A stretch of DNA of 64,000 bases, taken from assembly GCF_009914755.1 (NCBI RefSeq), contig NC_060925.1. The stretch is one strand, 5' to 3'. The position numbers were made by a program, and so were the translations under genes. Numbering within the stretch: position 1 is the first letter of the stretch; the number at the start of each line of letters is the position of its first letter. The notes beneath the pieces are model-generated. The model saw nothing but the letters and a program-made list of their open reading frames with translations. It did no database searches and had not been told where the DNA came from. Shown in pieces: positions 40,392-41,198 of the stretch. This DNA comes from the human T2T-CHM13v2.0 reference genome, Homo sapiens.

Positions 40392-41153
40392 TTTTTTTTT
40401 TTTTCGTAAATCAAAGTACTATTTTATTAAATGAGTTATTTTACACAATATGAACATCAATATAATTACAATTGTAAAAAATTTTTTTATAACAAGGATG
40501 GACTGATTTTCATATTTCCAAATCAGAGTCAACTGTACATTTACACAGAATTGTCTTTGCATGAAGCCCAAAAGGGAACAGCATAAAAAATGAGTGTTTC
40601 TGTAGCCCCTTTATTTTTGCTGATCAACAGTTTGTTAGAAAAGCAGCTGCAGGTATGTTACCTAAGGTCTGAGACAGTAGAAGAGTCAAAGGTGTCGTGA
40701 ATTCACCTGTAAACAACCTTATGCCTGAACATCAGCTAATTCTGGAGGAAGTGAAGTCTTAGGATGCTTGCTCTCAAAGTGCTGCTTGAAGGTCTTAGGG
40801 TCTGGCATTCGTGTCCTACAGACAGTGCAGGTATATATTAAGGCAGCTTTGGCAGCAGCCTTTTGGTCATGTCCTTGTTTCTTCTTTTGTCCAGCTTGCT
40901 TTTTGGCATTATTCTGCTGAGACTGAATTTTCTGCTGTCCACGAGCCATATCCGGGCCAGGAGAATCTTGCGTCGGAGAGACAGTGCAGCGCGAGAGGGC
41001 CGGGAGAGGACGCCGGAGGGAAAGGAAGGGGGAGCGCGCCCAGCATCGCTTGGGCCTCCTCCACCCGCTCAGGAGGGGAAACAGGAGAGCCGGGAGCACA
41101 ACAGCCTCGCGCGCCCGCCGCCGCCTCAGCCTTAGGGGAGGCCACTACGCCTC
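40392..41153 (-). pseudogene. Processed retrocopy of ZNF706 (5'UTR + intact 76-codon ORF 40949->40719 + short 3'UTR + poly(A))
   Basis: Intronless ORF MARGQQKIQSQQNNAKKQAG...YTCTVCRTRMPDPKTFKQHFESKHPKTSLPPELADVQA; AATAAA (minus strand) at 40423-40428; poly(A) at 40392-40404; perfect 14-bp TSD tggttacatttctt at 40378-40391 and 41154-41167. Confidence 0.93.
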
Positions 41154-41166
41154 TGGTTACATTTCT

Positions 41167-41198
41167 TGATCATGGTATCTCCCCAGCTAGGTAAGTAT
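41167..41198 (-). pseudogene. 3'-truncated, tailless U1 snRNA retro-fragment (U1 nt 1-32)
   Basis: Reverse complement ATACTTACCTAGCTGGGGAGATACCATGATCA versus U1 ATACTTACCTGGCAGGGGAGATACCATGATCA (2 mismatches); 19-bp TSD ctctttg(a/g)ttacatttctt at 41199-41217 and 40373-40391. Confidence 0.92.
41172..41190 (+). CDS. Predicted coding part (MVSPQL + G) of a candidate alternative DEGS1 first exon
   Basis: gatcATGG (A at -3, G at +4); 19 nt = phase 1, same as DEGS1 exon 1; donor TAG|GTAAGTAT at 41190/41191. Usage is inferred, not shown by the sequence. Confidence 0.5.

What the first reader, a model, noticed from the sequence alone, without database searches (positions are those of the whole stretch)
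40950..41198. Candidate alternative DEGS1 first exon built from two retro-insertions: ZNF706 5'UTR as promoter, antisense U1 fragment as ATG and splice donor
Seen: on the + strand the U1 fragment reads gatcATG GTA TCT CCC CAG CTA G|GTAAGTAT. The ATG (41172) has A at -3 and G at +4 and is the first ATG after 40871. The intron side of the donor is the exact complement of the U1 5' end, because it was copied from U1. ATG to donor is 19 nt (phase 1), the same phase as DEGS1 exon 1 (82 nt), so splicing 41190->54822 gives [16 protein letters not shown]... and a 302-aa DEGS1 with all three His boxes. Directly upstream is the ZNF706 retrocopy 5'UTR, still rich in CpG and GC-box-like sequence (cgcgcgcccgccgccgcc), which could act as an antisense-direction promoter. 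Established: canonical DEGS1 is N-myristoylated at Gly2, which affects its activity and localisation; this isoform would lack Gly2 and the first 27 residues. My unverified recollection is that public DEGS1 gene models extend about 7.5 kb upstream of the main TSS, which would fall here. Inference: a spliceosomal RNA fragment exapted as both start codon and splice donor for a lineage-specific enzyme isoform.
Basis: partly seen in the sequence, partly recalled or inferred. Interest (0 to 1): 0.95.

Follow-up and report, generated by a model that had tools for sequence, protein, structure and literature searches.

The report
Latent DEGS1 exon from antisense U1 pseudogene
Upstream of human DEGS1, a short backwards U1 snRNA pseudogene beside a ZNF706 retrocopy reads like a start codon plus a near-perfect splice donor, but nothing here shows that the cell uses it.

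Summary
On the + strand, 41168-41198 is the reverse complement of U1 snRNA nt 1-31, with 29 of 31 bases identical to real U1 genes. ATG 41172 has A at -3 and G at +4 and is the first + strand ATG after 40869. It lies 19 nt before a donor that is the best of 3350 + strand GT sites in the window. Joining 41190 to 54822 is in frame and gives 302 aa with all three His boxes.

The origin is ordinary. The U1 piece is a 3'-truncated, L1-mobilised snRNA pseudogene, a class already in print. Eight of 30 genomic copies I examined are the same kind of fragment. It sits beside a young ZNF706 processed retrocopy (1.6% from its parent) and a truncated Alu. All three insertions used one repeatedly duplicated target site.

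The ATG-plus-donor cassette is built into every antisense U1 copy (47 places in this genome). The phase match is a 1-in-3 coincidence. The product would lose most of the conserved Lipid_DES domain.

Use as an exon could not be tested. RefSeq has no such exon, and I found no paper on it. Weak hints in favour are CpG retention and no competing annotated acceptor. My verdict is a latent, or at most weakly used, young 5' exon.

The parts
40373..40391 (.). Target-site duplication, copy 1 (CTCTTTGGTTACATTTCTT), left flank of the ZNF706 retrocopy
   Evidence: family D3. It is 18 of 19 identical to 41199-41217.
40392..41153 (-). ZNF706 processed retrocopy (RefSeq LOC724084). The poly(A) tail is seen as a T run at about 40392-40403.
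   Evidence: The four exons of the parent on C8:102324656-102331372 lie contiguous here. There are 12 mismatches in 749 aligned bases, plus a 17-bp gap in a GCG repeat.
40719..40949 (-). Intact 76-aa ZNF706-like ORF in the retrocopy
   Evidence: translation; SERF-like_N 35.1 bits, zf-met 25.1 bits. One search shows 3 differences within the coding part. I read all 3 as amino-acid changes, one of them also seen by comparing.
40950..41153 (+). CpG-rich antisense ZNF706 5'UTR. It is the proposed promoter and 5'UTR of the candidate exon.
   Evidence: 204 bp, GC 0.70, 20 CpG, o/e 0.80; 19 of 21 parental CpGs kept; no + strand ATG.
41154..41167 (.). Target-site duplication, copy 2 (TGGTTACATTTCTT), between the retrocopy and the U1 fragment
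41168..41198 (-). 3'-truncated U1 snRNA pseudogene (U1 nt 1-31). The next 5 bases are microhomology with the target site.
   Evidence: 29 of 31 identical to U1 genes L004 and L008; blast 1-32; Rfam U1 model starts at position 1
41172..41190 (+). Candidate start codon plus 19 nt of coding sequence (MVSPQL plus 1 base), phase 1
41191..41198 (+). Intron side of the candidate 5' splice site (GTAAGTAT), the complement of U1 nt 1-8
   Evidence: 10 of 11 positions match, 10 of them contiguous, the best of 3350 + strand GT sites. AGGTAAGTAT occurs 2 times against 0.08 expected.
41199..41217 (.). Target-site duplication, copy 3 (CTCTTTGATTACATTTCTT)
41218..41402 (-). 5'-truncated Alu with poly(A) tail, a third insertion at the same site
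   Evidence: (Metazoa_SRP-like hit on the - strand at 41230-41378)
41408..41420 (.). Target-site duplication, copy 4 (GATTACATTTCTT). It abuts the A-rich tail of an older - strand Alu (41421 onward).
54822..55564 (+). DEGS1 exon 2, the proposed acceptor. It is the first annotated acceptor downstream of 41190.
   Evidence: and the hub table

Best explanation
The 249-bp stretch is the junction of two L1-mediated retro-insertions on the minus strand at one re-used target site, next to the A-rich tail of an older Alu. The first insertion was a tailless, 3'-truncated U1 snRNA pseudogene (U1 nt 1-31/32). Reverse transcription was primed inside the purine-rich loop of U1 stem-loop I by microhomology with the nicked target. 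Later a full-length ZNF706 mRNA copy (about 1.6% diverged, so roughly 10-15 Myr old by inference) and a truncated Alu went into the duplicated target copies on either side. Read on the plus strand, any U1 5' end gives an ATG in good context, 19 nt, and a near-perfect 5' splice site. Here that cassette points toward DEGS1 and happens to be in phase with exon 2. I therefore read it as a latent first exon. It is a by-product of pseudogene insertion that may give rare spliced transcripts. It is not shown, and not likely, to be an established source of a functional DEGS1 isoform. Shown: the origin, architecture, frame and donor strength. Inferred: the order and age of the insertions, and low or no usage.
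For: U1 identity and its start at nt 1. Four direct copies of the target at 40374, 41150, 41200 and 41403. Copy 3 shares with copy 1 the 5 bases CTCTT, which copy 2 lacks because the ZNF706 5' end stands there, so U1 went in first. Of the 30 genomic loci carrying the 31-mer that I examined, 8 are fragments ending at U1 nt 32-36 and 22 are 147-165 nt long. By eye, 5 of the 8 have clear flanking duplications with junction microhomology. This is the class described in PMC4476161, section 8, read in full. Parent and retrocopy. Cassette is generic: 47 places in the genome against 0 for the control. The RefSeq table has no exon between 27289 and 48483 on + other than a snoRNA. The product loses Lipid_DES profile positions 1-22 of 37, and what remains scores 17.3 bits, below the 23-bit cut-off. 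No canonical GC box, TATA or CCAAT. A crude scan finds 18 strong-looking acceptors in 41270-54822 (exon 2 among them) and 4 acceptor-donor pairs that could intercept splicing.
Against: Several features favour real use. The donor is the best in the window. There is no upstream ATG from 40872 to 41171. There is no AATAAA/ATTAAA on + between 40900 and 42363. No annotated acceptor lies between 41190 and exon 2, because the RefSeq exon 48923-49074 is preceded by GC, not AG. The 204-bp segment meets minimal CpG-island criteria. It kept 19 of 21 parental CpGs with only one deamination-type loss. That is fewer losses than expected for methylated DNA under most assumed rates (P 0.003-0.32, central value about 0.05, using recalled mutation-rate ratios). 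This hints at germline hypomethylation. I also recall, without confirmation, that the Ensembl DEGS1 gene begins about 7.5 kb upstream of the RefSeq start, which would fall near window 40977.
Confidence: 0.55

Rival explanations
1. It is a real alternative DEGS1 first exon. Transcription starts in the antisense ZNF706 5'UTR, the U1-derived donor splices to exon 2, and a 302-aa non-myristoylated desaturase with altered localisation or activity is made.
For: The frame is open and the His boxes are kept. The donor is the best in the window. There is no uATG and no early poly(A) signal. No annotated acceptor comes before exon 2. CpG retention points the same way. N-myristoylation at Gly2 affects DES1 targeting, according to passages in PMC4625378 that cite Beauchamp 2009. 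There is also the unconfirmed recollection of an Ensembl gene start near window 40977.
Against: No expression data were seen. It is absent from the RefSeq table. None of the 10 literature searches returned a paper on it. It removes 22 of the 37 profile positions of the conserved Lipid_DES domain. There is no canonical core-promoter motif. The element is young, so there is no conservation to argue for function. The phase match is expected 1 time in 3.
Confidence: 0.12
2. It is entirely silent on the + strand. The region is methylated pseudogene DNA, and the exon exists only on paper.
For: There is no RefSeq model on + here. There are no canonical promoter motifs. The island is only 204 bp long with 20 CpGs. 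By my estimate (not a tool result), 47 cassette copies in the genome would put about one upstream of a gene in sense orientation by chance.
Against: CpGs are retained better than methylated decay predicts under most assumed rates. Such a strong donor is likely to capture any stray transcript. There is also the unconfirmed recollection of an Ensembl model starting here.
Confidence: 0.25
3. The upstream start is used, but the transcripts are non-coding or regulatory. They might splice into cryptic (for example Alu-derived) exons, interfere with the canonical DEGS1 promoter as they read through it, or serve as intron host for the SNORA72-like copy at 44884-45010.
For: A crude scan finds 18 strong-looking acceptors in 41270-54822 (exon 2 included) and 4 acceptor-donor pairs. 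The SNORA72-like copy lies on the + strand inside the would-be intron (91.1 bits against a 43-bit cut-off).
Against: There are no data. The snoRNA copy has a damaged 5' hairpin in the Rfam alignment. Exon 2 has a very strong acceptor (17 of 19 pyrimidines).
Confidence: 0.08

Closest known systems
3'-truncated ('tailless') snRNA pseudogenes mobilised by LINE-1 (Doucet et al. 2015, PMC4476161). That paper equates its Group II with Classes II and III of Denison and Weiner 1982.
   Same: It starts at snRNA nt 1, is truncated in a single-stranded purine-rich segment, has no poly(A), is flanked by target-site duplications, and shows microhomology at the 3' junction.
   Different: Nothing in its structure differs. 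What is particular here is its position and orientation upstream of DEGS1, and its nesting with two later insertions at the same duplicated target.
Processed pseudogenes or retrocopies whose sequence is recruited as an alternative promoter or first exon of a neighbouring gene (general phenomenon, recalled, not searched in detail)
   Same: Retro-inserted DNA lies upstream of a host gene and offers a CpG-rich segment and a splice donor in the host's orientation.
   Different: The CpG-rich part is a transcribed 5'UTR read backwards, not the parent's promoter. Use as a promoter or exon is not shown.
Alu exonisation, in which antisense Alu copies supply splice sites (recalled)
   Same: The antisense strand of a retro-inserted small-RNA-derived element carries a ready-made splice signal.
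   Different: The signal here is a 5' splice site that is the literal complement of U1's own 5' end. It would end a first exon rather than create an internal cassette. It also carries an ATG in fixed phase.
RefSeq alternative DEGS1 first exon 48923-49074 (hub table)
   Same: It also bypasses exon 1 and therefore Gly2. I infer that translation would start at the first ATG of exon 2, because the exon has no ATG and no acceptor.
   Different: It lies inside the DEGS1 CpG island and is curated. The candidate lies 7.3 kb upstream, is retro-derived and is not in RefSeq.

Membership tests
3'-truncated L1-mobilised snRNA pseudogene | Copy begins at nt 1 of the snRNA and is colinear with it | tested here: met
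   29 of 31 identical to U1 genes from nt 1; blast match over nt 1-32.
3'-truncated L1-mobilised snRNA pseudogene | Truncation in a single-stranded, purine-rich segment, recurrent among copies | tested here: met
   the Rfam structure line marks model positions 28-37 as a hairpin loop; 8 of the 30 loci examined end at nt 32-36.
3'-truncated L1-mobilised snRNA pseudogene | Flanking target-site duplication and no poly(A) | tested here: met
   41199-41217 against 40373-41391-side copy 1 (40373-40391), 18 of 19 identical. No A run follows the U1 part.
3'-truncated L1-mobilised snRNA pseudogene | Microhomology between snRNA and target at the 3' junction | tested here: met
   the 5 bases after U1 nt 31 read AAGAA against U1 ACGAA, so 4 of 5 match.
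3'-truncated L1-mobilised snRNA pseudogene | L1 endonuclease-like cleavage site (TTTT/A) | tested here: inconclusive
   the primer strand ends in a pyrimidine-rich ...CATTTCTT, but the next base in the reconstructed empty site is T, not A.
Processed pseudogene of ZNF706 | Intron-less copy of the spliced parent mRNA with poly(A) tail and target-site duplication | tested here: met
   four parental exons on C8 lie contiguous here. T run at 40392-40403; duplications.
Used alternative first exon of DEGS1 | Present in a curated or predicted gene model | tested here: not met
   The RefSeq RS_2025_08 table given with the finding lists no exon at 40950-41190. Ensembl/GENCODE could not be consulted.
Used alternative first exon of DEGS1 | Transcription initiation on + and junction 41190 to 54822 in RNA data | not testable with these tools
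   No expression data are held. None of the 10 literature searches returned a paper on it.
Used alternative first exon of DEGS1 | Consensus 5' splice site and an open frame into exon 2 | tested here: met
   (10 of 11 positions match, best of 3350 sites). (302-aa open frame).
CpG-island promoter | Length of at least 200 bp, GC of at least 0.5, CpG o/e of at least 0.6 (criteria recalled) | tested here: met
   204 bp, GC 0.70, o/e 0.80. This is only just long enough, and neighbouring Alus pass a similar filter.
CpG-island promoter | Unmethylated state and promoter chromatin | not testable with these tools
   Only indirect evidence: 19 of 21 parental CpGs are kept, P 0.003-0.32 depending on assumed rates.
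Sphingolipid delta4-desaturase (the hypothetical 302-aa product) | FA_desaturase domain with three His boxes | tested here: met
   PF00487 at 86.1 bits in exon 2. His boxes kept.
Sphingolipid delta4-desaturase (the hypothetical 302-aa product) | N-terminal Lipid_DES domain (PF08557) | tested here: not met
   exon 1 carries profile positions 1-22 of 37 (44.7 bits). The exon 2 remainder scores 17.3 bits, below the 23-bit cut-off.

The most novel reading that the evidence does not exclude
Antisense copies of the U1 5' end are a genome-wide stock of ready-made 'ATG + 19 nt + perfect 5' splice site' cassettes, with at least 47 in this genome. One of them, joined by chance to a hypomethylated CpG-rich retrocopy 5'UTR, has given apes a new DEGS1 first exon. 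That exon is really spliced to exon 2 and translated into a non-myristoylated desaturase lacking most of the Lipid_DES domain. The spliceosome's own RNA would then have been copied back into the genome as the splice site it recognises.
Probability: 0.12. Interest if true: 0.6.

Novelty: new member of a known kind. Interest (0 to 1): 0.35.

Why it matters
If the exon is used, it would be a tidy case of gene-structure innovation. A fragment of U1 snRNA, reverse-transcribed into DNA, would serve in antisense as the very 5' splice site that U1 binds, and as a start codon. It would give a lineage-specific N-terminal variant of the enzyme that makes ceramide from dihydroceramide, without the myristoylated Gly2 that is reported to influence its targeting. 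Because the cassette is the same in every antisense U1 copy, one confirmed case would justify a genome-wide survey of U1 pseudogenes at exon ends. If it is not used, the locus is still a clear example of one target site re-used three times by the L1 machinery. It also warns that perfect-looking exons arise automatically from antisense U1 pseudogenes.

Tried and rejected
1. Rfam alone could not establish the U1 origin: 13.3 bits, E 5.9 in 6 kb, and 15.1 bits, E 0.02 in 66 nt. I replaced it with alignment to real U1 genes found in the same genome.

- DEGS1 + 'alternative first exon': 1 paper, on T-cell intron retention, seen in the listing only.
- 'U1 pseudogene' with antisense / splice donor: a loose 2-of-3-term search; none of the 15 papers listed of 2,629 contained 'U1 pseudogene'.
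- 'U1 pseudogene' + exonization: 0 papers.
- DEGS1 + ZNF706: 2 unrelated papers, listing only.
- Recalled coordinates, transcript ids and pseudogene names: 0 papers.
- DEGS1 + 'alternative promoter': 4 papers. In one, the latest version no longer mentions DEGS1. In another, the DEGS1 passage is unrelated. The other two I saw in the listing only.
- 'U1 pseudogene' + donor: 0 papers.
- The remaining three searches were aimed at myristoylation and at snRNA pseudogenes, not at the exon.
- Supplements were not searched, so junction or transcript tables there may hold the answer.

4. I looked for a genomic fossil of the alternative transcript. The only DEGS1 processed copy (C8:28504199, 82% identical) carries the canonical exon 1-exon 2 junction and is far older than the insertions, so it says nothing.

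5. I considered a single chimeric U1-ZNF706 retrocopy made by template switching. I rejected it because a copy of the target site lies between the two parts.

6. I considered the order 'ZNF706 first, U1 second'. I rejected it because copy 3 keeps the 5 flank bases CTCTT, which a duplication of copy 2 could not supply.

7. The CpG-decay test is suggestive only.

8. I could not obtain the 1982 Denison and Weiner paper. It is cited only through PMC4476161.

9. I did not search the large protein databases for an annotated isoform with the new N-terminus. That would have needed a joined query, and clustering at 90% identity would hide it.

Full report
**What is there**

The window is human chr1 upstream of DEGS1. 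On the + strand, 41168-41198 reads GATCATGGTATCTCCCCAGCTAG|GTAAGTAT. ATG 41172 has A at -3 and G at +4. The only + strand ATGs in 40700-41200 are at 40721, 40764, 40869 and 41172. From the ATG to the last base before GT (41190) is 19 nt, and canonical exon 1 coding (48580-48661) is 82 nt, so both leave phase 1. Read from the file, 41172-41190 + 54822-55564 + 57576-57722 is 909 nt. It translates without a stop to 302 aa and keeps the three His boxes found at canonical positions 89, 128 and 259.

**Is the U1 origin real?**

Rfam by itself is weak: 13.3 bits, E 5.9 in a 6-kb scan, and 15.1 bits, E 0.02 in a 66-nt scan, against a gathering score of 69.5. I therefore located real U1 genes in the same genome, where 42 matches exceed the cut-off, and aligned two of them with the - strand of the window. 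Positions 41198 down to 41168 equal U1 nt 1-31 at 29 of 31 positions. The next five bases (AAGAA against ACGAA) match at 4 of 5. The 31-mer has 47 places in the genome within 3 mismatches, against 0 for the reversed control. The fragment is U1-derived beyond reasonable doubt.

**What kind of U1 copy is it?**

I fetched 30 of the 47 places. Of those 30, 22 are long copies (147-165 nt aligned) and 8, including this one, are short fragments that start at nt 1 and end at nt 32-36. The other 17 places were not fetched. By eye, 5 of the 8 short fragments are flanked by clear direct duplications that begin where the U1 match ends. One more is partial, and two show none I could see. The Rfam structure line puts the truncation point in the loop of the first hairpin.

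This is the class described by Doucet et al. 2015 (PMC4476161; section 8 read in full). They describe 3'-truncated snRNA pseudogenes that lack poly(A), are truncated in single-stranded purine-rich segments, show junction complementarity and are flanked by target-site duplications. [quoted passage not shown] The fragment is an ordinary member of that class.

**Architecture of the locus**

Four direct copies of G[G/A]TTACATTTCTT lie at 40374, 41150, 41200 and 41403. They frame three minus-strand inserts:
- the ZNF706 retrocopy at 40392-41153;
- the U1 fragment at 41168-41198;
- a 5'-truncated Alu at 41218-41402 (an SRP-like hit on the - strand).

The fourth copy abuts the tail of an older - strand Alu. 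Copy 3 (41199-41217) shares 18 of 19 bases with copy 1 (40373-40391). That shared stretch includes five flank bases, CTCTT, which copy 2 lacks because the ZNF706 5' end stands there. From this I infer that the U1 fragment went in first. The ZNF706 mRNA and the Alu then inserted into the two duplicated target copies. This is inference from the sequence, not from other species.

**The ZNF706 copy**

Its parent lies on C8:102324656-102331372, in four exons that are contiguous in the window. There are 12 mismatches in 749 aligned bases (1.6%), plus a 17-bp length difference in a GCG repeat. With recalled primate neutral rates, that suggests roughly 10-15 Myr. No primate genome was available to test this. 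The 76-aa ORF is intact. One search shows three differences in the coding part, and I read all three as amino-acid changes and none as silent. That gives no sign of constraint.

**Does the + strand look like a working first exon?**

In favour:
- The donor matches the complement of the U1 5' end at 10 of 11 positions, 10 of them contiguous. It is the best of 3350 + strand GT sites in the window; DEGS1 exon 1's own donor scores 5.
- AGGTAAGTAT occurs twice in the window against 0.08 expected.
- There is no upstream ATG.
- There is no AATAAA/ATTAAA on + from 40900 to 42363.
- The only annotated exon between the candidate and exon 2 (48923-49074) is preceded by GC, not AG, and so offers no acceptor.
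- The antisense 5'UTR (204 bp, GC 0.70, CpG o/e 0.80) just meets the usual island criteria.
- It kept 19 of 21 parental CpGs, with a single deamination-type loss. Under recalled CpG/non-CpG rate ratios, that is fewer losses than expected for methylated DNA. The result depends heavily on the assumptions (P from 0.003 to 0.32).

Against:
- No GGGCGG/CCGCCC, TATA or CCAAT is found in 40900-41200.
- Neighbouring Alus pass a similar CpG filter.
- A crude scan finds 18 strong-looking acceptors in 41270-54822 (exon 2 among them) and 4 acceptor-donor pairs that could intercept splicing.
- The RefSeq table supplied with the finding has no + strand model here.
- None of the ten literature searches produced a paper on such an exon, or on U1 pseudogenes acting as donors. 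Supplements were not searched.

**How special is the coincidence?**

The ATG, the 19-nt spacing and the donor are fixed properties of the U1 5' end read backwards. They are present at all 27 places that carry the unmutated U1 form, and with one extra change at most of the rest. The chance elements are therefore orientation (1 in 2), phase (1 in 3) and location upstream of a gene. With 47 or more copies in the genome, I estimate that about one such configuration is expected by chance. This is my own estimate, not a tool result.

**What would the protein be?**

Exon 1 encodes profile positions 1-22 of the 37-position Lipid_DES domain (44.7 bits from 27 residues). The part left in exon 2 scores 17.3 bits, below the 23-bit cut-off. 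FA_desaturase is intact at 86.1 bits. The product would lack Gly2. Passages of PMC4625378 citing Beauchamp 2009 report that N-myristoylation affects DES1 targeting. RefSeq's other first exon contains no ATG. From this I infer that it too yields an N-terminally shortened protein, starting at the first ATG of exon 2.

**Verdict**

The origin story is right and can be sharpened: the locus holds a known class of tailless U1 pseudogene, nested with a young ZNF706 retrocopy and an Alu at one re-used target site. The functional claim remains open.

My odds are:
- a latent or weakly used exon, about 0.55;
- fully silent, about 0.25;
- a functional 302-aa isoform, about 0.12;
- non-coding or regulatory use, about 0.08.

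A look at GENCODE models, junction databases and CAGE data would settle it.

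Noticed in passing
window 40719-40949 (-): The ZNF706 retrocopy, annotated as a pseudogene, keeps an intact 76-aa ORF. One search shows 3 differences from the parent within the coding part. I read all 3 as amino-acid changes and none as silent. This is consistent with youth rather than constraint.
   Followed up: partly
L023, L030, L034, L035, L037, L041, L042 (own genome: C1:76796344, C3:69403395, C8:69652171, C8:73435473, C10:92888514, C17:73099883, C23:126436291): Seven further U1 fragments cover only nt 1 to 32-36. Four have clear flanking duplications and junction microhomology. On its antisense strand, each carries the same ATG + 19 nt + donor cassette.
   Followed up: partly
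window 44884-45010 (+): A SNORA72-like H/ACA copy (Rfam 91.1 bits against a 43-bit cut-off; RefSeq LOC124900425) lies on the + strand inside the would-be intron 41191-54821. Its 5' hairpin has a 5-nt gap and mispairs in the Rfam alignment. It would be intronic only if the upstream exon is used.
   Followed up: no
window 40373-41420: One 13-19-nt target next to an Alu tail was hit three times (U1 fragment, ZNF706 mRNA, truncated Alu). Each insertion regenerated the site.
   Followed up: yes
L046/L048 (own genome C8:28504199-28505626): An old DEGS1 processed pseudogene (about 82% identical) with the canonical exon 1-exon 2 junction. It is interrupted by about 700 bp between exon 2 positions 638 and 636-737.
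   Followed up: partly
window about 41109-41126 versus L011:1640-1680: The parent ZNF706 exon 1 has a 17-bp extra unit of a GCG-rich repeat that the retrocopy lacks. This is either a later duplication in the parent or a deletion in the copy.
   Followed up: no
L014 (own genome C6:76621228-76621345): A separate 118-bp match (89%) to the 3' end of the ZNF706 mRNA. It is probably another, heavily 5'-truncated retrocopy.
   Followed up: no
window 48923-49074 (+): The RefSeq alternative DEGS1 exon has no AG before it and contains no ATG. It is therefore an alternative first exon, and I infer that its mRNA starts translation inside exon 2.
   Followed up: partly
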